From the IMG/VR virus record IMGVR_UViG_2721755497_000002, positions 1 through 46,410 of that record: DNA of 46,410 bases; one strand, written 5' to 3'. The DNA comes from a virus. Its lineage: Duplodnaviria; Heunggongvirae; Uroviricota; Caudoviricetes. This document shows positions 982 to 19,913 of this stretch, in pieces. The translations under genes were made by a program, and so were the position numbers. How positions within the stretch are numbered: the first letter of the stretch is position 1; the number at the start of each line of letters is the position of its first letter. Below the pieces are notes generated by a model. The model was not told the origin of the DNA. It was given only the letters and a program-made list of their open reading frames with translations, and ran no database searches.

Positions 982-1063
982 AAATTCAATCACTTACACA
1001 TCATTAAGTCAGTGACAAAAATCACACTTGGAATTACTTGGAATATTTTCTTGGAATATTTTC
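982..1063. repeat. attL candidate: tRNA 3' flank with tandem direct repeats (CTTGGAAT x3, including TTGGAATATTTTC x2) overlapping the int 3' end; possible arm-type Int binding sites
   Basis: Direct repeats visible at about 1027-1063, immediately between the tRNA and the integrase stop codon. Confidence 0.3.
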
Positions 1064-2059
1064 AGGTAACGGGACATCAAGTGTTGGTGAAACTTTAACC
1101 TTCCTGTCATAGATTAGCACTTGCCCTTCGGTTTTGTGACCAGAGAAAAGTTGCTTATCCCGGCTGCTTCCTTCATAGTCTGAAATTCCTTTCGCCTTCA
1201 GATCATGAAAGGTGAAGTCGGATAAAATACCTGAAATTTTTCCAGCACGATTTCTTGCTTCTACCCACATTTCGTTAAAGCCTTTGTACATATATCGGTT
1301 GCCGTATTGATTGCTGATCACATAGGCAGATTTTGGTAACTGTTTTGCTTTTTCGATCGCTGCCTGTAATCGTGGACTCCATGCTTTTATCTGTTTTTTT
1401 CCGGTTTTCCCTTGCTGGATGAATATCCCGTCGTTTCCAATCTGTTCCCATTTCAGCGATAACACATCGGAAACCCTCGCTGCACACAGATAGGCAATTT
1501 CCATTGCGATAAAAACAGGAAGAGGTGCAACGCTTAATACTGCCTGGTATTCTTTGTCGGTTACATATCGTTCGCGGTTTTTGGCCTTGAATTTACTTAC
1601 ACCTGCACATGGGTTAGCCTTGACGTACCCTCGCTCATACCCCCAACTGTAAACACGGGACATACTGCTTTTTTCATGGTTGGCTTGCGTTTTACTCTGC
1701 TCCCCTCTTTTGTCCATGTATCGACGGATGTGTTCTGGTTTTATGGAATCCGCTGGTACCTTACCGAATACGGCAAGCAACTTTTTTTGATGTTGCAGAT
1801 AATCTTTTTGTGTTCTTGGACTAAGGTCACTGTAATAGGCGCTGGCGAGGAATTTTTCCCACAAGCGACCGAATGTCATTGCACGATCGCGATTATTTAC
1901 AGTTTCCTCATACTTTTTCCATAAAGCAGCTAAACCATCCTTGATGGCGGTTAGTGTGACAGATTCTCTGGATGTTGGTTTCCATACATAACTATATTTA
2001 TTTGGGTATACATTTGGAGGTAATTTTTCGTGTTCAGGATTTTTCCTTCGTCTTCCCAT
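1034..2059 (-). CDS. int: Tyrosine integrase, lambda Int family
   Basis: 341-aa ORF; N-terminus MGRRRK...LPPN resembles lambda Int; directly adjacent to the tRNA integration site. Confidence 0.9.
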   Translation of the reverse strand: MGRRRKNPEHEKLPPNVYPNKYSYVWKPTSRESVTLTAIKDGLAALWKKYEETVNNRDRAMTFGRLWEKFLASAYYSDLSPRTQKDYLQHQKKLLAVFGKVPADSIKPEHIRRYMDKRGEQSKTQANHEKSSMSRVYSWGYERGYVKANPCAGVSKFKAKNRERYVTDKEYQAVLSVAPLPVFIAMEIAYLCAARVSDVLSLKWEQIGNDGIFIQQGKTGKKQIKAWSPRLQAAIEKAKQLPKSAYVISNQYGNRYMYKGFNEMWVEARNRAGKISGILSDFTFHDLKAKGISDYEGSSRDKQLFSGHKTEGQVLIYDRKVKVSPTLDVPLPENIPRKYSK

Positions 2060-2320: not shown

Positions 2321-4762
2321 TTAAAAATCAGCCTGACTCGGGATCAGTTTTTGCCAGATAGCTGAAACGTATTTTGCCTGGTAACGAGCGTCATCAAGTG
2401 CATTATGGCGCTCACCTTCGAATGGGATAGCAGTTCTGGCATCGAAGTCTATGGCTTTCCCCAGCTCAACGATTGTGCGTACATCGCGATCGTTGCAGTA
2501 GCGCCATGGGCAGGGGATACCCTGTCGTTCGTATGAACGGCGTAAAATCACGTTGTCGAAGTTGGCCCCATTACCCCAGACCTGAACAAAAAATTCACCG
2601 GAGTTTTCGTCGATAAATTCCCGCAATTGCAGTAGTGCATCATCTAACGGGATTTCATCGGTCATAATGGCAGACTGCGCTTCACGTGATTGCTTCAGCC
2701 ACCATTTAATGACGTCACGATCAATGACTCCGCCAGCAGTATCCAGATCGATGGTCTTGCTAAATTCCGGTCCCATATCTCCGGTTTGTGGATCGAAAAA
2801 TATTGCGCCTATTGAGATAATCGGGGCATCGGGATTTATTCCCATGGTTTCAAGGTCGATCATCAGATGAATCCCCGCTCTGCTGGTGGATGTGAGATTA
2901 TGATGACCGTTCGCCTTAATTAAGGGATCTGACGCCTCGCCAGTTTCACTATCGCTGGCATGATGCTGATTGCCGCCAGTGTTCTCCTTGTGCTGATGCG
3001 CAGTGCCTTCCATTTCCTCCGGATCATTTTCCTGAACTTCAGGCTGATTCTCTCCATCGAATATTTCCTGGTATGTTGCGTCACCCATCACCGCACCACA
3101 ATCAGGGCAGTTGCCGCCACCGCTATGACCGCAGGCGGTGCAGATCTTTTCCGGTTCCTGTTGCACTACTGGTTCAGGTTGTTTCGTTTCTGGCTCGTTT
3201 TGTTGCGTATTTGGGCTGTTTTGTTCCGCTTTCTGGTCGTTCTGTTCCGTTTCTTGCTGGTTCTGGTTCACAGAATCGCGAGTCTGGATCCCCTTGACCC
3301 ATTTCGGATCATTAGGGTCGCTAATCCCCTCAACAAATTCACCACGCGATACAGCAAGTAACTTATCGGCGTCAGGCTGGCTGATATTGGCTGCCTGCAT
3401 AATTTTGTTTACTTCGTCAGCGGTGACTTTTACCTGGTTAGCGGAACTCACCTGCGACTGAGCATCCAGCGACTGCGCGTTCTGGCAATGTTCAGTTGTA
3501 TCCGGTTCCATTGTTTCAGTTGTTGCCTGTTCACCTGCCATTGCGTCAGATGGTTGTGGTTTTTCTTCCTCTGTTTCACGTTCAGTAACCACCTCGCGGT
3601 TAATTTCTTCCAGGATATCTTTTTCCGGCGTATGCCGGGCAGCTGTGAGAGTTTCCTTGCTGGGGTTCTCGTGATCAGTTTCCGTCAAATAGGCGTTGAT
3701 ATACCCCTGAAGGCGTCCCGGGTAGTGATAAAATTCAGGGTGTGCGCTTCGGATAAGTGCAAAAATAGCGGCGCGGGAATAGTCCAGAATACCCGGGGTT
3801 GCACGAAGTGCTGAGGACCATTCTTTGAACGGACTTTCTTTTTTCAGGACTACTTCTTTTGCGCGACGATAAACGCTGCCCGGAATTTCATAAATATTAA
3901 AATCCATCGGAAGTGTGGCTGCTGCAATCTCCACATCCAGTGTGTCGAGGGTGTGTACTAAATTCGGATTGCGATCGGTTTTGTTCCCACCGCCAGCATT
4001 AGCACCGGAAGCCGTGCGGGTGATGCGTGAAACACGATTTCCTTTCATCCACTCTTTTGTCAGCAGACCCCGATCAATGTAGTCAGCGTCCAGGTATGCT
4101 TCGAAAAAAGCAGTTATTAGTCCCAGGTCTGAATTACCAGGATTAGGGAAAACTTTGTCAGTGTCACGAACCAGTTTGTGGAGGTCGCGAATCTCCAGCG
4201 AGTCGAGCAGACTGGTTTTATGCGAAATAGCCAGGGCAGTAACAGCCGGTAGTTCTTCAGCCCGTGCAATGTGTAATGCCTGGAGTTCGTCGCGTGAAAC
4301 GTGCGTTACTGGTTTTTCGCTGCCGTGTTGAGCAAGCCAACGAATGGGCAGTTCCTGACCGGAGACAGGCAGAAGCATGCTCTCCTCAATCTCAGTCATG
4401 TCTTCGCCGTTGATGTTGGTATTGTCAGTGCTGGCTGGTTTGTCCTGAACAGAGGGGGAAGGGCCGATAAATGTCATTGTGATGCCATCTTTCCCGCCTT
4501 TTTCATAGCGGTTGCAGAATTCAGTATCAAACACGCCTTCTGGCGGAAGGTCGTCAACAACGGGCAAATTGACGCGGACGGGTTTTTTAAAGTCGTCTTC
4601 ATCATAATCGTTGTCATCCATTGCGGTAATGCAGCGGGAGATTGCAACAGATAATTTTTTTGCTGTAGTCCAGTAAAAACCACCTTTAATTCCCAGGCGT
4701 TTTCTTACTTTGTCATTTTTTGCTTCGCAATATAGTGCAAATTCTTCTTTATCAGTGCTCAT
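2321..4762 (-). CDS. Large phage exonuclease: long acidic N-terminal region with a C4 zinc ribbon and a C-terminal DnaQ-like (DEDDh) 3'-5' exonuclease domain; the type often annotated exodeoxyribonuclease VIII-like in lambdoid prophages
   Basis: 813-aa ORF; C-terminal motifs IDLETMG (Exo I), WGNGANFD (Exo II), HNALDDARY (Exo III); zinc ribbon CTACGHSGGGNCPDCG. Confidence 0.75.
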   Translation of the reverse strand: MSTDKEEFALYCEAKNDKVRKRLGIKGGFYWTTAKKLSVAISRCITAMDDNDYDEDDFKKPVRVNLPVVDDLPPEGVFDTEFCNRYEKGGKDGITMTFIGPSPSVQDKPASTDNTNINGEDMTEIEESMLLPVSGQELPIRWLAQHGSEKPVTHVSRDELQALHIARAEELPAVTALAISHKTSLLDSLEIRDLHKLVRDTDKVFPNPGNSDLGLITAFFEAYLDADYIDRGLLTKEWMKGNRVSRITRTASGANAGGGNKTDRNPNLVHTLDTLDVEIAAATLPMDFNIYEIPGSVYRRAKEVVLKKESPFKEWSSALRATPGILDYSRAAIFALIRSAHPEFYHYPGRLQGYINAYLTETDHENPSKETLTAARHTPEKDILEEINREVVTERETEEEKPQPSDAMAGEQATTETMEPDTTEHCQNAQSLDAQSQVSSANQVKVTADEVNKIMQAANISQPDADKLLAVSRGEFVEGISDPNDPKWVKGIQTRDSVNQNQQETEQNDQKAEQNSPNTQQNEPETKQPEPVVQQEPEKICTACGHSGGGNCPDCGAVMGDATYQEIFDGENQPEVQENDPEEMEGTAHQHKENTGGNQHHASDSETGEASDPLIKANGHHNLTSTSRAGIHLMIDLETMGINPDAPIISIGAIFFDPQTGDMGPEFSKTIDLDTAGGVIDRDVIKWWLKQSREAQSAIMTDEIPLDDALLQLREFIDENSGEFFVQVWGNGANFDNVILRRSYERQGIPCPWRYCNDRDVRTIVELGKAIDFDARTAIPFEGERHNALDDARYQAKYVSAIWQKLIPSQADF

Positions 4763-4855
4763 TATTGGTAAACCTCATCACAGATTTAAGGGTGAACAAA
4801 TCTCTGCCATTGCTGACATATAAGAATGAAACTGGATATTTATTACGGTGCTGTT

Positions 4856-5047
4856 TTAAAATCCTGCCGGGATTTCGTTATTATCCTGGTGAATAACTTT
4901 ATCGACCGGATAACAGTTGCCTGGAATTTTCTGTTCGGTTGCTGCTGCCATACATTCCTGCATTGTTCTGTGAACACTGACTGCAATATCAACTGGCTCT
5001 CCGGAAACAAGAAAAACCGTCAGAATAAGTGCAAATACTGGATTCAT
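4856..5047 (-). CDS. ydfD: YdfD, small membrane lysis protein of the dicB operon
   Basis: Internal Met of ORF 4856..5101 gives 63 aa MNPVFALILTVFLVSGEPVD... matching YdfD as recalled; start overlaps dicB stop (ATGA). Confidence 0.75.
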   Translation of the reverse strand: MNPVFALILTVFLVSGEPVDIAVSVHRTMQECMAAATEQKIPGNCYPVDKVIHQDNNEIPAGF

Positions 5048-5232
5048 TGTGCACATCCCTTTGGCATCAGACGTAAACGGGCCAGCATTGAAACAATGCA
5101 TACTTTATTTAATAACTCCCGTTCGTGTTTTCTTTTGTTAATGGCATCTTCAGTAAATACAGGATTACTGATAGTGACACCAATTTCAAAACAACCTTCA
5201 GACGTATTAACGTTTGGTAATAACGTTTTCAT
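5044..5232 (-). CDS. dicB: DicB cell division inhibitor (MinC-activating)
   Basis: Internal Met of ORF 5044..5337 gives 62 aa MKTLLPNVNTSEGCFEIGVTISNPVFTEDAINKRK...MPKGCAQ, matching DicB of Qin prophage. Confidence 0.85.
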   Translation of the reverse strand: MKTLLPNVNTSEGCFEIGVTISNPVFTEDAINKRKHERELLNKVCIVSMLARLRLMPKGCAQ

Positions 5233-5406
5233 TATCGCGCCCTCAACAATGAGTTTTGTGATGCGGTGCCTGGTGCCTCCAGGTGACGTTAACCAGTTAA
5301 CAATTAACGCCGGATACAGAGAATCCACCCATAACACTGTTTTTGGTTTTAACTGTTCCGCGTGCGCTTAGTCGCATTCACCGCATCACAAAATTCACTT
5401 TAAAAA

Positions 5407-5459
5407 GGGCGGCAGAGCAGTCACGGAGTAAAACTGATACCGCCAAACGTCACCAGAAA
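5407..5459 (-). ncRNA. dicF: DicF small RNA (Hfq-dependent, represses ftsZ)
   Basis: Reverse complement reads TTTCTGGTGACGTTTGGCGGTATCAGTTTTACTCCGTGACTGCTCTGCCGCCC followed by a U-tract; lies between ydfC and dicB as in Qin. Confidence 0.8.
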
Positions 5460-5799
5460 ATTGATAACAGAGGGCGTTGCAGCGGGGTTGTCACTTAAGC
5501 GTATGGTCAACCTGACAACCCGGTGTCCTCAACGGGGAAGGAATAACCCCGCCATACTTACCGCCGCGTCATTTCGCGGAGTGCCACAACCGGAAGCGCA
5601 CGGTCGACGAAAATTTAACGACAGGCTATCTATGAACCAGCTACCTCGCCGTGCGCTTTCGCGTTATGGTCTGACTTTTCATGGAAATATCCTTTCAGTA
5701 AACTGTCAGTGCCGGATGCTCACCCGTGTCCGGCGCACGCACTCCACCTCACCCGTGGAGAACTCCTTAATTACCAACCTTAGCTTCGTTGGTTAGCTA

Positions 5800-6018
5800 T
5801 TAACGCGGGTATGTAATCATTCTGGCAATGCTTAATGCCGCTGCTTTTTCCAGATTGGTGATATCCTGCTCCAGAGCGGACAGATTTTCAGCCTGCTTAG
5901 CCCTGGCTTCATTGGCCCATTTCAGATCCTGCGCTGCATTAATTTTCTGGCGCATCCACTCATAAAGTTCATCATCGGTATAGTCTGGCGCGATGATGAC
6001 GGGTTCTCGTTTCTGCAT
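5800..6018 (-). CDS. ydfC: YdfC-like protein of the dicB operon
   Basis: 72-aa ORF MQKREPVIIAPDYTDDELYEWMRQKINAAQ... in the expected operon position. Confidence 0.7.
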   Translation of the reverse strand: MQKREPVIIAPDYTDDELYEWMRQKINAAQDLKWANEARAKQAENLSALEQDITNLEKAAALSIARMITYPR

Positions 6019-6047
6019 ACTGATTCCTCGCGGTGCTGCTTCGCTTA

Positions 6048-6176
6048 TCAGCCATTAGATTTTGCCGAACTGGAAAGCGCCTGTTTAAACTCACTGAAGC
6101 TGAGAGCTTCTTCGCCTTCGGCAAGGCCTTCGAAGTATTCTTCGTAAGCCTTTTCCATGACTGTGTTGAAATCCAT
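6048..6176 (-). CDS. ydfB: YdfB-like small protein (42 aa)
   Basis: Not in ORF track (under 60 aa); minus strand reads MDFNTVMEKAYEEYFEGLAEGEEALSFSEFKQALSSSAKSNG; adjacent to ydfA stop. Confidence 0.65.
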   Translation of the reverse strand: MDFNTVMEKAYEEYFEGLAEGEEALSFSEFKQALSSSAKSNG

Positions 6177-6177
6177 A

Positions 6178-6333
6178 TCACTCACCTGGATTTCTTTCTA
6201 GCCAGCGACGCGCGCCAGATTCGGTTTTAAACGTTTTACTTTTGGTATACGTCATCGCGGTGAACGTGCCGTCCTGGTTGGGAAACACGCCGTACACCAG
6301 AGATTCGTTGTTGCCAAGATCGATAGTATCCAT
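6178..6333 (-). CDS. ydfA: YdfA-like small protein (51 aa)
   Basis: Internal Met of ORF 6178..6414 gives MDTIDLGNNESLVYGVFPNQDGTFTAMTYTKSKTFKTESGARRWLERNPGE. Confidence 0.7.
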   Translation of the reverse strand: MDTIDLGNNESLVYGVFPNQDGTFTAMTYTKSKTFKTESGARRWLERNPGE

Positions 6334-6622
6334 GCTGACCTCATTTCCCCTTAACGCCGGGGTAGCGGAACAAAAACCTGCTGCATAGTTATTAAAGTTG
6401 AACCCTGCCGTCATGTTCTTACGCCTCGGGCTGGCTACTTAACCCCTGACCACTGCCTGGTAACTCGAAGTATTGCCCGGCGTTCTGTGGGGCGGGGTGG
6501 GTTGGTAGATTCAGTTTAATAAACATTAAACTGAAGTCAAGTAAAAACTAAATCATGGGGCGTAACAAACACAACGCTTTTGATAAAGTCGTTGCGGTTG
6601 TTATTTCTATTGGTAGTGAAAG

Positions 6623-6901
6623 TTAGGGAAACTGGCGTCTTGCGTGGATCACGTTTACTACTTCAACGCTTGATGTTGTTACGCGGTATAGAATTATATA
6701 GTTAGGGTGGGCCACAATCTCACGCAAGCCAGGTACTCTGTCGCTTGGTGGGTATAAATACGGATGTTCGGATAATGGCAGCACACAACCCCTTAATCGC
6801 TGCCATAAGCGTTCAGCCGCATCTACGTCGAAACGAGCAATATAACTAGTTATATCATCTAGGTCGGTATCTGCGCTTTCAAGCCATAACACGGGTAACA
6901 T
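6623..6901 (-). CDS. ParE/RelE-family type II toxin (candidate)
   Basis: About 92 aa from internal Met (MLPVLWLESADTDLDDITSYIARF...IHARRQFP); size and composition typical of ParE/RelE toxins; start is 1 nt after the stop of the upstream small gene. Confidence 0.65.
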   Translation of the reverse strand: MLPVLWLESADTDLDDITSYIARFDVDAAERLWQRLRGCVLPLSEHPYLYPPSDRVPGLREIVAHPNYIILYRVTTSSVEVVNVIHARRQFP

Positions 6902-6902
6902 T

Positions 6903-7094
6903 TTACTGCTTGCTCCGTTCCTTCCGCATTTTAGCAAAGCGTTCTGCCATTCTGCGCTCAACTTCGTCATGGGGAATTGCTGGGCGCGGATCTGCAAGGC
7001 TTGTTGCTACTTTCGCACGCAGCCATTCGTTGTAACTGTTTTCTTGTTCAATGGTTTCAAATTCAGAAACCATTGGTGAAAGGGCTCTATTCAT
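6903..7094 (-). CDS. Cognate antitoxin candidate (small DNA-binding protein)
   Basis: 63 aa from internal Met (MNRALSPMVSEFETIEQENSYNEWLRAK...); GGAGG Shine-Dalgarno 4 nt upstream; immediately upstream of and coupled to the toxin gene. Confidence 0.55.
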   Translation of the reverse strand: MNRALSPMVSEFETIEQENSYNEWLRAKVATSLADPRPAIPHDEVERRMAERFAKMRKERSKQ

Positions 7095-7114
7095 GTTTCC
7101 TCCGGTTTTATAAC

Positions 7115-7486
7115 TCAGGCGCGGCGGCATTTTTGCGCCGCAATCCATCTCGCTATGAGATCTTCCATTGATTCTTTTTTCTGCTTTAACTCGCTGATTA
7201 TCTGGCGTTGCTCATCCTCAGGGAAGGCTGAAAAAATCTGCAATAATTCCAGTTGATTAGACGTTAACCCTGCATGTGGTGGAGAAACCTCAGGTTGTTC
7301 TGCGTATTCCACATCTAGATACCCATCCGGCATCCCGTATGTTTGCTCTATTCTTCTGGCAGCCTTTTCTCCAAACGAGGCTCTCCCACTCATTAGTTGA
7401 GATAGGTAGCTCTTCTCTTTGGGTGGCAGAGTTTTATCTTTAAACCACTCCTTGAGACGTAAACGGCGAATTTCTTTTTTTTGCAT
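7115..7486 (-). CDS. Phage repressor, cI/DicA-like (HTH XRE family)
   Basis: 123 aa from internal Met MQKKEIRRLRLKEWF...; HTH region SYLSQLMSGRASFGEKAARRIEQ; divergent from the cro-like gene across an operator-rich spacer. Confidence 0.8.
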   Translation of the reverse strand: MQKKEIRRLRLKEWFKDKTLPPKEKSYLSQLMSGRASFGEKAARRIEQTYGMPDGYLDVEYAEQPEVSPPHAGLTSNQLELLQIFSAFPEDEQRQIISELKQKKESMEDLIARWIAAQKCRRA

Positions 7487-7582
7487 GTGGTAATTATCTT
7501 TAGTAATCACTAAACAAGCAAATACTTGACTTAATGGTTTATTAAACACTAAACTCGCAAAAAACACTAAACCGAGGAAGGT
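7487..7582. promoter_or_regulatory. Immunity-region divergent promoter/operator spacer with three ACTAAAC-containing direct repeats and a rightward TTGACT-N18-TAAACT promoter
   Basis: Repeats atcACTAAACaag, aacACTAAACtcg, aacACTAAACcga; sigma70-like -35/-10 upstream of the cro-like gene. Confidence 0.45.
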
Positions 7583-7885
7583 ATGACATTAAAAGAGTTT
7601 ATTAAATCATTGAGGGTTGGTGATGCTAAGAAATTCGCGGCCAGACTTGGTGTATCGCCATCTTACTTATCGCAAATGGCGTCTGGACGAGCAGCTATAT
7701 CTCCAACCCGCGCCCTTATGATCGAATCTGCTACGGAAGGCCAAGTAAGTAGGGCGGAGCTACGACCCCATGATTGGGAACTTATTTGGCCTGAGTATGC
7801 GAGCGGCATTCGTTTGGGGCAAACGCATGTAGTTCATGCTGAAGGTGATTGTAGTGCATGCTTATCTGATGGAGTTGATTCATGA
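7583..7885 (+). CDS. Cro-like HTH regulator (YdaS family)
   Basis: 100-aa ORF; HTH motif AARLGVSPSYLSQMASGRAAIS; first gene of the rightward early operon. Confidence 0.7.
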   Translation: MTLKEFIKSLRVGDAKKFAARLGVSPSYLSQMASGRAAISPTRALMIESATEGQVSRAELRPHDWELIWPEYASGIRLGQTHVVHAEGDCSACLSDGVDS

Positions 7886-8307
7886 AAATCAAGCATGAGC
7901 ATATTCGCATGGCGATGAATGCCTGGGCGCGTCCGGATGGTGAAAAAGTTCCGGTAGCCGAGATAACCAGGGTTTATTTCGAGCTGGGCATGACGTTTCC
8001 TGAGCTGTATGACGACAGCCATCCGGAAGCCCTGGCCCGTAATACCCAGAAAATTTTCCGCTGGGTGGAGAAAGACACCCCTGATGCGGTTGAAAAAATT
8101 CAGGCGTTACTGCCAGCGATCGAAAAGGCAATGCCGCCTTTGCTGGTGGCCAGAATGCGTAGTCACAGCTCAGCCTATTTCAGGGAGCTGCTGGAGACAC
8201 GAGAACGGCTGGTGAGAGACGCTGATGATTTTATCGCAGTGGCAATCGCCGGTTTCAATCAGATGAACCGTGGTGGCCCTGCAGGAAATATTGTGGCTGT
8301 GCATTGA
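7882..8307 (+). CDS. YdaT-family protein (CII-like functional analogue)
   Basis: 141-aa ORF overlapping the cro-like stop; size and position match Rac YdaT. Confidence 0.6.
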   Translation: MKIKHEHIRMAMNAWARPDGEKVPVAEITRVYFELGMTFPELYDDSHPEALARNTQKIFRWVEKDTPDAVEKIQALLPAIEKAMPPLLVARMRSHSSAYFRELLETRERLVRDADDFIAVAIAGFNQMNRGGPAGNIVAVH

Positions 8308-13821: not shown

Positions 13822-14088
13822 TTTTATACCTTTTGTGTTGTGTGAACGATGAGTATAGTCAGAAATGAGACTGTGAAGGGGGATAGAAAATAATAGTTTG
13901 TTTTTGTAGAATCGCTGCGGGTGCTTGGGGCTATCTGTCTCAGGCATGAACACCAAAAGGCAGATAGAGAAAAGCCCCAGTTAACATTACGCGTCCGGCA
14001 AGACGCTTAACATTAATCTGAGGCCATATCTATGACTTGCACGCGTAGGTTAGCCTCTTACGTGCCGAAAGGCAAGGAGAAGCAGGCT

Positions 14089-14244
14089 ATGAAGCAGCAA
14101 AAGGCGATGTTAATCGCCCTGATCGTCATCTGTTTAACCGTCATAGTGACGGCACTGGTAACGAGGAAAGACCTCTGCGAGGTACGAATCCGAACCGGCC
14201 AGACGGAGGTCGCTGTCTTCACAGTCTACGAACCTGAGGAGTAA
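14089..14244 (+). CDS. hokD: Hok/Gef-family type I toxin
   Basis: Internal Met of ORF 14032..14244 gives MKQQKAMLIALIVICLTVIVTALVTRKDLCEVRIRTGQTEVAVFTVYEPEE, a near match to HokD/RelF as recalled; upstream in-frame extension is consistent with a mok-like leader. Confidence 0.8.
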   Translation: MKQQKAMLIALIVICLTVIVTALVTRKDLCEVRIRTGQTEVAVFTVYEPEE

Positions 14245-18026: not shown

Positions 18027-18115
18027 AGGATACAGATAATTATGAAAAAATCACTAACGCGTACGCAAAAACTATCTTAATCTGTTAAGAGTGGTCGCTT
18101 CGCCACACAACTTAA

Positions 18116-18140
18116 ACCCGCATCAAGCGGTTTTTTTTGT
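18116..18140 (+). terminator. Weak intrinsic terminator (CCGCatcaaGCGG + T8) upstream of the tRNA cluster; possible tR'
   Basis: Short GC stem followed by eight T residues on the plus strand. Confidence 0.35.
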
Positions 18141-18243
18141 GCCACTTATCTCGGATAGACATGGTGAATGCGCTGGTGGAGGAGATAAGGGTGATTTTTG
18201 AATGCTTGCAACATTGATTTCGTAACGTTATTATCCTGCGCCC

Positions 18244-18319
18244 GGCCCTTTAGCTCAGTGGTGAGAGCGAGCGACTCATAATCGCCAGGTCGCTGGTTCA
18301 AATCCAGCAAGGGCCACCA
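18244..18319 (+). tRNA. tRNA with CAU anticodon (Met or lysidine-dependent Ile2; ileZ-like phage tRNA)
   Basis: 76 nt GGCCCTTTAGCTCAGTGGTGAGAGC...ACTCATAATCG...GGTTCAAATCCAGCAAGGGCCACCA; canonical cloverleaf. Confidence 0.8.
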
Positions 18320-18326
18320 TCTCATA

Positions 18327-18403
18327 CCGCCATTAGCTCATCGGGACAGAGCGCCAGCCTTCGAAGCTGGCGGCGCGGGGTTCGGGTCCTCGATGGCGGT
18401 CCA
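18327..18403 (+). tRNA. tRNA-Arg, anticodon UCG (argN-like phage tRNA)
   Basis: 77 nt; acceptor CCGCCAT/ATGGCGG, anticodon loop CTTCGAA, T-arm CGGGG-TTCGGGT-CCTCG, CCA end. Confidence 0.75.
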
Positions 18404-18416
18404 TTATCTGCACCAT

Positions 18417-18490
18417 GCGGTCATCGTATAATGGCTATTGCATCAGCCTTCCTGGCTGATTATGCGGGGCAATTCCCGCTGACCGCTCCA
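18417..18490 (+). tRNA. tRNA-like element, argO-like but degenerate (non-canonical anticodon loop CTTCCTG and shortened T-loop GCAATT)
   Basis: Acceptor GCGGTCA/TGACCGC with CCA end; anticodon and T-loops deviate from consensus; may be a pseudo-tRNA. Confidence 0.4.
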
Positions 18491-19104: not shown

Positions 19105-19304
19105 TTCTACATCTTTGCAGTAAACAATAATCATAATTGCATGTTTTTTCTGTGGTGGGGCATTTGGCTTCTGTTGCCTGCGATGTATTGTGGACCTGGT
19201 ATCAGCCTGCAGAAAATGCACACAGGTGTGAAGTGTTAAATTCCTCACAACTCAGAACGCAGAATGTTGTCCTGCTTGCGGGGAATTTGTTAAAAGAGTA
19301 CAGC

Positions 19305-19423
19305 ATGGTGAATCCCCCTGAGCGGAGGGGCATAATGACAGATGTTTGGTCGTGTTATCGTATAGGCAAGTTGCGGATTCTGTCTGGTCATTGCAGAATT
19401 CACCGGGAGGCACCCGGCACCAT
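19305..19423. repeat. Repeat unit copy 1 (about 119 bp): ATGGTGAATCCCCCTGAGCGGAGGGGC ... CACCGGGAGGCACCCGGCACCAT with two GC-rich hairpins
   Basis: Termini shared with copy 2 and mutually reverse-complementary (ATGGTG / CACCAT). Confidence 0.45.
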
Positions 19424-19558
19424 GTATTTTCAATATGTTATTGATCATTCTCTTTTTCGGAATACTCTGGTTATGTTTTCCTGTAACTGATAATTAAATC
19501 ACATTTTGTGTAACTGCATATTGTCTGAACGGGATAAGTTTCAGTATCTTCTGAATGT

Positions 19559-19678
19559 ATGGCGAATCCCCCTGTGCGGCGGGGCGTACTGATTTAAGTA
19601 GTCATCCAAGAATGCAGCTGAATGAAAACGCGCTCCATATTAATCAGTGGTGGAGCACCGGGAGGCACCCGGCGCCAT
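19559..19678. repeat. Repeat unit copy 2 (about 120 bp): ATGGCGAATCCCCCTGTGCGGCGGGGC ... CACCGGGAGGCACCCGGCGCCAT
   Basis: Same terminal hairpin modules as copy 1, divergent interior. Confidence 0.45.
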
Positions 19679-19707
19679 ACCGATGATGAAAGTAAATGCG
19701 TCCATCC

Positions 19708-19732
19708 GCCCCTCTCCGGAGGGGCTTTTTTA
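19708..19732 (+). terminator. Strong rho-independent terminator (GCCCCTCtccgGAGGGGC + TTTTTT) upstream of nanS-p
   Basis: 7-bp GC stem, 4-nt loop, T-tract. Confidence 0.6.
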
Positions 19733-19913
19733 TGGGCAAAAAAAGCCCGCTACGAATGGTAACGGGCTGCACAAAATAACAAAATGTGAAGTATTCTAAT
19801 CAGCCGCTGAATAATACCCGACAGTAATTAATCTGTGCAACGGTGCTTTTTCCCGCCTTGCAGGCACCGACTCTCTCATTTGATTTAACGCATTATCCCG
19901 TCCGGGAGGATTC

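What the first reader, a model, noticed from the sequence alone, without database searches (positions are those of the whole stretch)
4856..6333. Complete dicB-operon module (ydfA-ydfB-ydfC-dicF-dicB-ydfD)
The sequences of DicB, DicF, YdfD, YdfA and YdfB match the Qin prophage versions as recalled, including the exact 53-nt DicF core. This is a known division-control module, carried here in a lambda-type structural background. An intact copy means repressor loss would block division (DicB/MinC, DicF on ftsZ) and may alter phage receptor availability.
Basis: partly seen in the sequence, partly recalled or inferred. Interest (0 to 1): 0.4.

Follow-up and report, generated by a model that had tools for sequence, protein, structure and literature searches.

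The report
Intact dicB operon in lambdoid prophage
This stretch is a complete, undamaged copy of the well-known dicB/DicF cell-division-inhibitor operon, here wired as the early-left operon of a CP-933P-like lambdoid prophage of E. coli. It is ordinary, apart from an overlooked structured RNA between dicF and dicB.

Summary
On the minus strand lie ydfA (6178-6333), ydfB (6048-6176), ydfC (5800-6018), DicF (5407-5459), dicB (5044-5232) and ydfD (4856-5047). All reading frames are open. DicF is 53/53 identical to K-12 b1574 and scores 76.7 bits against Rfam RF00039. The proteins differ from the Qin versions by 0-7 residues.

The window is 100% identical to E. coli strains M3 and M1: a lambdoid prophage at tRNA-Ser beside mtfA. 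The module occurs in 4681 of 5426 complete E. coli genomes and in 39 phage records, and the literature describes it well. It is therefore already known.

One refinement: the Qin regulators DicA and DicC are absent. Homology to Qin stops about 38 nt upstream of ydfA. The operon instead sits behind a PL933P-type promoter with operators, next to a paaR2-paaA2-parE2 / ydaS-ydaT immunity region, as in O157:H7 CP-933P. The relevant repressor should therefore be PaaR2.

One unexpected item: the dicF-dicB spacer (5250-5397) is a divergent copy of the core of the STnc100/PasD phage RNA family. The core has covarying helices and an apparent pseudoknot. Its function is unknown.

Interest is low.

The parts
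6513..6540 (-). PL933P-like sigma-70 promoter (TTGACT-16 nt-TAAACT). The predicted start is near 6506.
   Evidence: Promoter scan. It has the same two hexamers as the PR-like promoter at 7526-7555(+), as reported for PL933P/PR933P in PMC8630535. Activity is inferred.
6514..6553 (.). Two 18-bp operator-like palindromes (6514-6531 and 6536-6553) overlapping the -10 and -35 of PL.
   Evidence: In the whole 46-kb window only four sites lie within 5 mismatches of the published PaaR2/YdaS inverted-repeat consensus GTTTAGTAA|TTACTAAAC. Two are here and two are in OR (7498, 7537). A perfect 11+11 palindrome lies at 6510-6535.
6334..6507 (-). Transcribed leader of the operon.
   Evidence: Thousands of E. 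coli prophage copies match up to 6507 and then diverge. The conserved block therefore begins at the predicted transcription start. Qin shares only the last ~38 nt.
6178..6333 (-). ydfA (DUF1391, 51 aa)
   Evidence: PF07151 E=1.3e-28. 49/51 aa identical to K-12.
6048..6176 (-). ydfB (42 aa)
   Evidence: 40/42 aa identical to K-12 YdfB. PGAP names it 'protein YdfB'.
5800..6018 (-). ydfC (72 aa)
   Evidence: 72/72 aa identical to K-12; the two nucleotide changes are synonymous.
5460..5799 (-). ydfC-dicF untranslated spacer. It holds a long imperfect duplex (arms 5591-5603 / 5649-5661) at the position expected for the RNase III cut that gives the 190-nt DicF precursor.
   Evidence: 330/341 nt identical to K-12. 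Inverted repeat I4. The fold of 5225-5800 has z=-5.9. The 190-nt species and the roles of RNase III and RNase E come from the paper read. Mapping the cut to these coordinates is my inference.
5407..5459 (-). DicF sRNA with its terminator hairpin, followed by UUUUU.
   Evidence: RF00039 76.7 bits. 53/53 identical to K-12 b1574.
5250..5397 (-). Structured RNA domain in the dicF-dicB spacer. It is a divergent copy of the STnc100/PasD core, closed by a 19-bp stem (5250-5268 / 5379-5397).
   Evidence: RF02076 38 bits, below the gathering score of 47; E=7.5e-5 for the whole window; model positions 21-154. Inverted repeat I1. Folds. Covariation.
5044..5232 (-). dicB (62 aa)
   Evidence: PF05358 E=5e-40 and NF049927 134 bits. 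60/62 aa identical to K-12.
4856..5047 (-). ydfD (DUF1482, 63 aa; lysis protein in K-12)
   Evidence: PF07358 E=4e-25. 56/63 aa identical to K-12.
6623..7486 (-). paaR2 (7115-7486), paaA2 (6903-7094) and parE2 (6623-6901): the repressor plus toxin-antitoxin operon upstream of PL.
   Evidence: PaaR2 is 119/123 identical to the O157:H7 CP-933P/Sp12-type protein. PF21217 PaaA2 E=1e-19 and PF05016 ParE E=8e-17.
7487..8307 (+). OR region (7487-7582), ydaS (7583-7885, Cro analogue) and ydaT (7882-8307, CII analogue).
   Evidence: PF15943 E=4e-12. PGAP 'toxin YdaT family protein'. Operator repeats. Functional roles come from PMC8630535.

Best explanation
The region is an intact dicBF operon (ydfA-ydfB-ydfC-DicF-dicB-ydfD). 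It serves as the early-left (PL) operon of a CP-933P-like lambdoid prophage integrated at tRNA-Ser beside mtfA in E. coli strains M3 and M1.

In the lysogen, the CI analogue PaaR2 should keep the PL-type promoter at 6513-6540 shut by binding the operator palindromes that overlap it. The Cro analogue YdaS should also repress it when present.

When repression is lost, a polycistronic RNA is made. RNase III and RNase E, together with the DicF terminator, release the 190-nt and 53-nt DicF species. DicF then base-pairs with ftsZ, and with xylR, pykA and manX. Read-through transcripts express DicB and YdfD. DicB acts with MinC to block Z-ring formation and to inhibit ManYZ-dependent lambda entry. 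YdfD causes lysis and inhibits IspG.

Shown here: sequence identity, intact frames, family membership, promoter and operator motifs, and synteny with CP-933P. Inferred from published work on near-identical sequences: repression, RNA processing and every phenotype.
For: - Element-by-element identity with K-12 Qin, with open frames throughout.
- Rfam, Pfam and NCBIfam matches above their curated cut-offs.
- Mostly synonymous change in ydfA, ydfC and dicB, which indicates purifying selection.
- A promoter with the same hexamers as PR. The only four operator-like palindromes in the window lie at PL and OR.
- PaaR2 is 97% identical to the O157:H7 protein, and that prophage has the same gene order.
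- PMC8630535 shows that PL933P is repressed about 100-fold by PaaR2 and YdaS.
Against: - Nothing was measured in this strain.
- No convincing intrinsic terminator separates parE2 from PL, so read-through from PRM could give basal expression.
- The DicF terminator sits upstream of dicB. The paper read did not detect full-length ydfABC-dicFB-ydfDE transcripts in K-12, so how much DicB is made after derepression is uncertain.
- PaaR2 has no S24 peptidase domain, so the natural inducing signal is unknown.
- YdfD carries 7 substitutions whose effect is untested.
Confidence: 0.85

Rival explanations
1. The operon is not gated by the prophage repressor. It is transcribed at a low constitutive level by read-through from the paaR2-paaA2-parE2 (PRM) transcript, so DicF and perhaps DicB are present in ordinary lysogens.
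For: The two units are on the same strand and only about 80 nt separate the parE2 stop (6623) from the -35 of PL. The terminator scan finds nothing on the minus strand there. In K-12, DicF accumulates in stationary phase even though DicA represses the operon.
Against: The palindromes overlapping PL would also act as a roadblock when occupied. The operon is toxic when expressed (PMC5069750). PL933P behaves as a strong, repressible promoter.
Confidence: 0.1
2. The module is a decaying, functionless relic carried along by a defective prophage.
For: PGAP marks the integrase (1009-2059) and a tail-fibre gene (44098-45505) as frameshifted. Balasubramanian et al. 2016 found the locus only in defective prophages.
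Against: All five frames are intact and DicF is invariant. DicF and the adjacent spacer remain 97-100% identical across loci where dicB and ydfD have diverged to 63-68%. The module is now also found in 39 deposited phage records, including isolated phages annotated with DicF.
Confidence: 0.04
3. The copy is controlled in trans by a DicA-type repressor from another Qin-like element in the same genome, as in K-12.
For: Strain M3 holds three places matching the module, so other immunity regions are probably present. The PaaR2 C-terminus weakly resembles the DicA C-terminus (NF007257, 28.6 bits).
Against: Homology to Qin, including dicBp and its operators, ends about 38 nt upstream of ydfA. The promoter here carries PaaR2/YdaS-type repeats instead.
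Confidence: 0.03

Closest known systems
dicBF operon of cryptic prophage Qin, E. coli K-12 (b1571-b1576)
   Same: The six elements are the same, in the same order and with the same spacing: the ydfC-dicF gap is 341 nt here against 340 nt in K-12. DicF is identical, YdfC is identical, and DicB is 60/62. Both untranslated spacers and the 93-nt stretch after ydfD are shared.
   Different: There is no dicA/dicC and no dicBp; homology starts about 38 nt before ydfA. The downstream gene is an 813-aa exonuclease unrelated to K-12 ydfE. The host element is a near-complete lambdoid prophage, not a 20-kb remnant.
CP-933P / Sp12 prophage of E. coli O157:H7 (paaR2-paaA2-parE2, ydaS-ydaT, PL933P; Jurenas et al. 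2021, PMC8630535)
   Same: The immunity region is the same (97.7% nt identity; PaaR2 119/123). The PL and PR hexamers and operator repeats match. ydfC-DicF-dicB-DUF1482-exonuclease lies downstream of PL in both.
   Different: The O157 copy lacks ydfA and ydfB and carries an ECs_2282-type gene on the other strand instead. It is integrated at the Qin site near ynfA/rspA, not at tRNA-Ser/mtfA.
Lambda PL operon with cI-rexA-rexB upstream and the Kil division inhibitor downstream
   Same: The layout matches: a repressor gene followed by accessory genes (here a toxin-antitoxin pair), then a leftward operator-controlled promoter driving early genes that include a division inhibitor. PMC8630535 draws this analogy.
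   Different: No N gene or nut sites were recognised. The inhibitors are DicB and DicF, not Kil. No sequence relationship was seen.
Rfam RF02076 STnc100 / PasD prophage sRNAs (for the dicF-dicB spacer only)
   Same: Shared features are the closing stem NNNNGGUG...CACCNNNN, the GGUGAAU junction, hairpin P2 with loop U-N-N-G-C, a penultimate hairpin, and the terminal hairpin CC-N-GG/AGGCA/CC-N-GG. Differences in the stems are compensated.
   Different: The spacer scores 38 bits, below the gathering score of 47. It lacks the STnc100 5' leader and 3' terminator. It is internal to an operon, between an sRNA terminator and a coding gene, and its closing stem is much longer at 19 bp.

Membership tests
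dicBF operon (Qin type) | Gene order ydfA-ydfB-ydfC-dicF-dicB-ydfD on one strand | tested here: met
   same order and spacing as NC_000913 b1571-b1576.
dicBF operon (Qin type) | DicF RNA reaching the Rfam RF00039 gathering score | tested here: met
   76.7 bits against 48. 53/53 identical to K-12.
dicBF operon (Qin type) | DicB protein (PF05358 / NF049927) with an intact frame | tested here: met
   135.4 bits against 27, and 134.3 bits against 100. 62 aa with 2 substitutions.
dicBF operon (Qin type) | Repression of dicBp by DicA, with DicC as the Cro-like partner | tested here: not met
   No dicA or dicC is present. Homology ends about 38 nt upstream of ydfA, and a different immunity region follows.
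dicBF operon (Qin type) | Division block, DicF processing by RNase E/III, and ManYZ-dependent lambda resistance | not testable with these tools
   Inferred from sequence identity and from PMC5069750, PMC6832061 and the paper read.
CP-933P-type immunity region with PL933P | paaR2-paaA2-parE2 operon divergent from ydaS-ydaT | tested here: met
   PF21217, PF05016 and PF15943. PaaR2 is 97% identical to the O157:H7 protein. Synteny.
CP-933P-type immunity region with PL933P | A PL promoter downstream of parE2 with -35/-10 identical to PR and with PaaR2/YdaS operator repeats | tested here: met
   TTGACT/TAAACT at both promoters. Operator-like palindromes occur only at 6514, 6536, 7498 and 7537.
CP-933P-type immunity region with PL933P | Repression of PL by PaaR2 and YdaS | not testable with these tools
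   Shown for CP-933P in PMC8630535, not for this copy.
Rfam RF02076 STnc100 (dicF-dicB spacer) | Score at or above the family gathering score over the full model | tested here: not met
   38 bits against 47. Only model positions 21-154 of 206 match.
Rfam RF02076 STnc100 (dicF-dicB spacer) | Core helices P1, P2 and the terminal hairpin kept through compensatory changes | tested here: met
   RNAalifold on 39 cores: 8 of 18 pairs have both-sided changes. DicF-type sequences supply GC for CG in P2 and UA for GC in the terminal hairpin.
Rfam RF02076 STnc100 (dicF-dicB spacer) | Stand-alone sRNA with its own terminator | tested here: not met
   No terminator follows the domain. The dicB Shine-Dalgarno sequence and ATG follow within about 18 nt of the closing stem.

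The most novel reading that the evidence does not exclude
The dicF-dicB spacer is not a passive linker. It is a seventh functional element of the operon: a compact, pseudoknotted RNA domain homologous to the core of the STnc100/PasD phage RNAs. That core is also found in late-gene, holin and esterase leaders of many temperate phages.

Acting in cis, it would decide whether transcripts that pass the DicF terminator yield DicB and YdfD. Possible routes are an RNase III-processed 5' structure, a ligand- or protein-sensing leader, or an RNA polymerase-modifying element. If so, 'STnc100-type sRNAs' would be by-products of a widespread phage cis-regulatory RNA.
Probability: 0.35. Interest if true: 0.45.

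Novelty: already known. Interest (0 to 1): 0.13.

Why it matters
As a dicBF operon it adds nothing new. The module is in most E. coli genomes, is annotated in the identical public record, and its placement behind a PaaR2-controlled PL promoter matches O157:H7 CP-933P.

Two modest points have value. First, here the toxic operon sits in a nearly complete lambdoid prophage with a non-DicA immunity region. Strain-specific predictions about induction should therefore use the PaaR2/YdaS/YdaT switch rather than DicA/Rem.

Second, the dicF-dicB spacer is as conserved as DicF itself and shares a covarying, pseudoknotted fold with STnc100/PasD RNAs. That suggests an unstudied control point for DicB expression and gives a testable lead on what this widespread phage RNA fold does.

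Tried and rejected
1. STnc100-like domain as an HK022 put-type antiterminator RNA. An Rfam scan of the whole HK022 genome at E<=1 gave no STnc100 hit. The inverted repeats around HK022 PL/PR showed no resemblance. There is no detectable relationship, although functional analogy remains untested.

2. The 813-aa exonuclease downstream of ydfD as the intact form of the K-12 pseudogene ydfE. BLASTP found no similarity, so this was rejected. Homology to Qin ends in the 93-nt stretch after ydfD.

3. The antisense ORF 5461-5796(+), 111 aa, spanning the ydfC-dicF spacer. It is open in K-12 too, but 7 of the 11 nucleotide differences change the amino acid. It is treated as spurious.

4. Short ORFs on the operon strand inside the spacer, for example a 13-codon ATG ORF. 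The ATG is CTG in K-12, so the ORF is not conserved.

5. The perfect palindrome 6510-6535 as a LexA box or a terminator. It is AT-rich, does not fit CTGT-N8-ACAG, and matches the PaaR2/YdaS repeat consensus instead.

6. Other Rfam families in 4700-6700. Only chance-level hits were found (ES173 E=0.22, tsr32 E=0.9).

7. A custom covariance model of the core was considered but not built. The Rfam model already gave an independent test, because DicF-type spacers are not what it was built from.

Full report
**Observation**

Reading the region directly and listing ORFs shows five small open frames and one RNA on the minus strand, in Qin order:
- ydfA 6178-6333
- ydfB 6048-6176
- ydfC 5800-6018
- DicF 5407-5459
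- dicB 5044-5232
- ydfD 4856-5047

Rfam calls DicF at 76.7 bits against a gathering score of 48. I fetched the K-12 Qin region and aligned it. DicF is 53/53 identical. Element by element:
- YdfC is identical.
- YdfA, YdfB and DicB each differ at two residues.
- YdfD differs at seven residues.
- The ydfC-dicF spacer is 330/341 identical.
- The dicF-dicB spacer is 167/174 identical.

Pfam and NCBIfam place YdfA, DicB and YdfD in their families above the curated cut-offs.

**Where the window comes from**

The window is 100% identical to E. coli strains M3 and M1 from mouse. It corresponds to NZ_CP010183.1 4074694-4121103. The element is a lambdoid prophage inserted at tRNA-Ser next to mtfA. It carries the following:
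- integrase and a DUF4224 gene
- an 813-aa exonuclease
- the dicB operon
- an immunity region and replication genes
- hokD/sok, RusA and Q
- a tRNA cluster
- lysis genes
- a lambda-like head and tail set

PGAP marks the integrase and one tail-fibre gene as frameshifted. A 341-aa integrase ORF is nevertheless open. 'Lambda-type structural background' is therefore correct, but intactness of the phage is not established.

**Regulation differs from Qin**

Homology to Qin begins only about 38 nt upstream of the ydfA start, and dicA, dicC and dicBp are absent. Upstream on the same strand lie a ParE-family toxin, a PaaA2-type antitoxin and a 123-aa protein. Divergent from these are a YdaS-type Cro-like gene and a YdaT gene. 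The 123-aa protein is 119/123 identical to the corresponding protein of an O157:H7 strain. In that strain the same block precedes ydfC-dicB-DUF1482-exonuclease.

This is the CP-933P/Sp12 immunity region studied by Jurenas et al. (PMC8630535):
- PaaR2, YdaS and YdaT act as CI, Cro and CII analogues.
- A third promoter, PL933P, lies beyond parE2.
- PL933P has the same -35 and -10 as PR933P.
- PaaR2 and YdaS repress PL933P about 100-fold.

In the window I find TTGACT-16-TAAACT at 6540-6513(-) and TTGACT-18-TAAACT at 7526-7555(+). Only four sites in 46 kb lie within five mismatches of the published 18-bp inverted-repeat consensus. Two overlap PL (6514, 6536) and two lie in OR (7498, 7537).

Thousands of other E. 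coli prophage copies match the operon and its leader up to position 6507 and then diverge. The conserved block therefore begins at the predicted transcription start, and the promoter and operators travel with the immunity region. The dicB operon here is thus the PL operon of this phage type, and 'repressor loss' means loss of PaaR2 control. Binding and repression are inferred for this copy.

**How it most likely works**

The rest follows from published work on near-identical sequences:
- DicF is cut from the polycistronic transcript. RNase III gives the 190-nt form and RNase E the 53-nt form. No internal promoter exists.
- A long imperfect duplex (arms 5591-5603 / 5649-5661) lies exactly where a 190-nt species ending at the DicF terminator would begin. 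That placement is my inference.
- DicF represses ftsZ, xylR, pykA and manX (PMC5069750).
- DicB with MinC blocks division and protects against lambda at the ManYZ entry step without affecting adsorption (PMC6832061).
- YdfD is a lysis protein that inhibits IspG (PMC8835842).

One uncertainty concerns basal expression. No clear terminator separates parE2 from PL, so read-through from PRM is possible. A second uncertainty concerns DicB output. dicB lies beyond the DicF terminator, and full-length transcripts were not seen in K-12.

**How common it is**

The query matched 4681 of 5426 complete E. coli genomes. The median is 2 places per genome and the maximum 9. In 2023 genomes one place covers at least 80% of the query.

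The CP-933P-type immunity region together with the leader is present in 595 genomes.

In 2016 the locus was reported absent from about 2000 phage genomes. Now 39 phage records match, including isolated phages such as Tritos, whose record annotates DicF.

Across 16 divergent loci, ydfA and ydfB are often missing, including in O157 CP-933P. DicF and the dicF-dicB spacer stay 97-100% identical even where dicB falls to 68% and ydfD to 63%.

**The one unexpected item**

A permissive Rfam scan hit the dicF-dicB spacer (5255-5395, minus strand) with STnc100 (RF02076). The score is 38 bits, below the gathering score of 47. E is 7.5e-5 for the whole window, and only the core, model positions 21-154, matches. 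Two full STnc100 copies lie in the late region at 19274-19478 and 19529-19737.

About 16 of these sit between DicF and dicB. The 88 distinct cores are 108-146 nt long.

Evidence for a shared fold:
- RNAalifold on 39 non-redundant cores recovers the closing stem, hairpin P2 and the terminal hairpin.
- Eight of the 18 predicted pairs show changes on both sides.
- The DicF-type spacers differ from STnc100-type sequences by compensated changes.
- The loop of the penultimate hairpin pairs with the stretch just 3' of P2. The mean is 7.0 bp with the sequence's own partner, against 4.6 bp (sd 1.1) with swapped partners.
- That pairing reaches at least 7 bp in 56 of 77 sequences, against about 6% of swapped pairs, through more than a dozen different sequence pairs. 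This is a pseudoknot that the Rfam consensus line does not show.

The swapped-partner control does not correct for relatedness among sequences, so the numbers are descriptive.

Other copies lie shortly upstream of holin genes just after promoter-like sites, upstream of nanS-p-like esterase genes in 2-3 tandem copies, and once upstream of a P2 gpV-like gene.

A 2026 preprint links STnc100 with the PasD sRNAs but does not mention DicF or dicB. The 2023 dicBF regulation paper does not discuss a structure or terminator in this spacer. HK022, the source of put RNA, gives no hit. The function is unknown. I record it as a lead, not as part of the verdict.

**Comparison and verdict**

The region is a member of the dicBF operon family on every sequence criterion tested. 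It fails the one regulatory criterion, DicA/DicC control, and instead matches the CP-933P arrangement. Both are described in the literature, and the identical sequence is publicly annotated. The finding is therefore correct, already known and of low interest. The STnc100-like domain is the only element that might repay further work.

Noticed in passing
window 5250-5397 (minus strand): The dicF-dicB spacer is a sub-threshold STnc100 (RF02076) core: 38 bits against a gathering score of 47. It has a 19-bp closing stem, compensated stems and an apparent pseudoknot (CAGUUAA / UUAACUG). Across divergent dicF loci it is as conserved as DicF itself.
   Followed up: partly
window 19274-19478 and 19529-19737 (+); loci L006-L125: Two tandem full-length STnc100 copies lie upstream of a DUF6645, nanS-p-like gene. 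The core motif CACCNGGAGGCACCNGGCACC is in at least 120 IMG/VR contigs. It often lies just after a promoter-like site and upstream of holin genes, and sometimes occurs in 2-3 copies.
   Followed up: partly
window 6334-6507 (minus strand): The operon leader is shared by thousands of E. coli prophage copies. The shared block ends at about the predicted PL start site, so promoters and operators swap with the immunity region. An in-frame ATG at 6414 would extend YdfA to 78 aa, but Qin lacks that stretch.
   Followed up: partly
window 6623-7486 (minus strand): The three-gene paaR2-paaA2-parE2 unit sits between the repressor start and PL, the position rexA-rexB hold in lambda. PaaR2 residues 71-119 weakly match the C-terminal part of DicA (NF007257, 28.6 bits, E=1e-6).
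   Followed up: partly
window 2321-4762 (minus strand): An 813-aa protein combines an Exonuc_VIII (RecE-like) N-terminal region with a C-terminal Rv2179c-like 3'-5' exoribonuclease domain. It follows ydfD and is unrelated to K-12 ydfE at the same position.
   Followed up: partly
window 1009-2059 and 44098-45505: PGAP marks the integrase and a tail-fibre gene as frameshifted in the identical record. A 341-aa integrase ORF (1034-2059) is still open, so the defect is at the 3' end.
   Followed up: partly
window 13919-14244 and 43689-43956: A hokD/sok module (sok 111.5 bits) lies in the nin-like region. A second Hok/Gef ORF with a weak sok-like hit (27.6 bits) lies between gpJ and the tail-fibre genes.
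   Followed up: no
window 18091-18490: A 36-aa 'antiterminator' fragment is followed by tRNA-Met(CAT), which PGAP calls Ile, and by tRNA-Arg. This is the layout seen upstream of stx in Stx phages, but no toxin genes are present. PGAP's third tRNA (Gly, 18417-18490) is not called by ARAGORN or Rfam.
   Followed up: no
window 5461-5796 (+): A 111-aa antisense ORF spans the whole ydfC-dicF spacer and is open in K-12 too. However, 7 of the 11 nucleotide differences are non-synonymous, so it is probably not a gene.
   Followed up: yes
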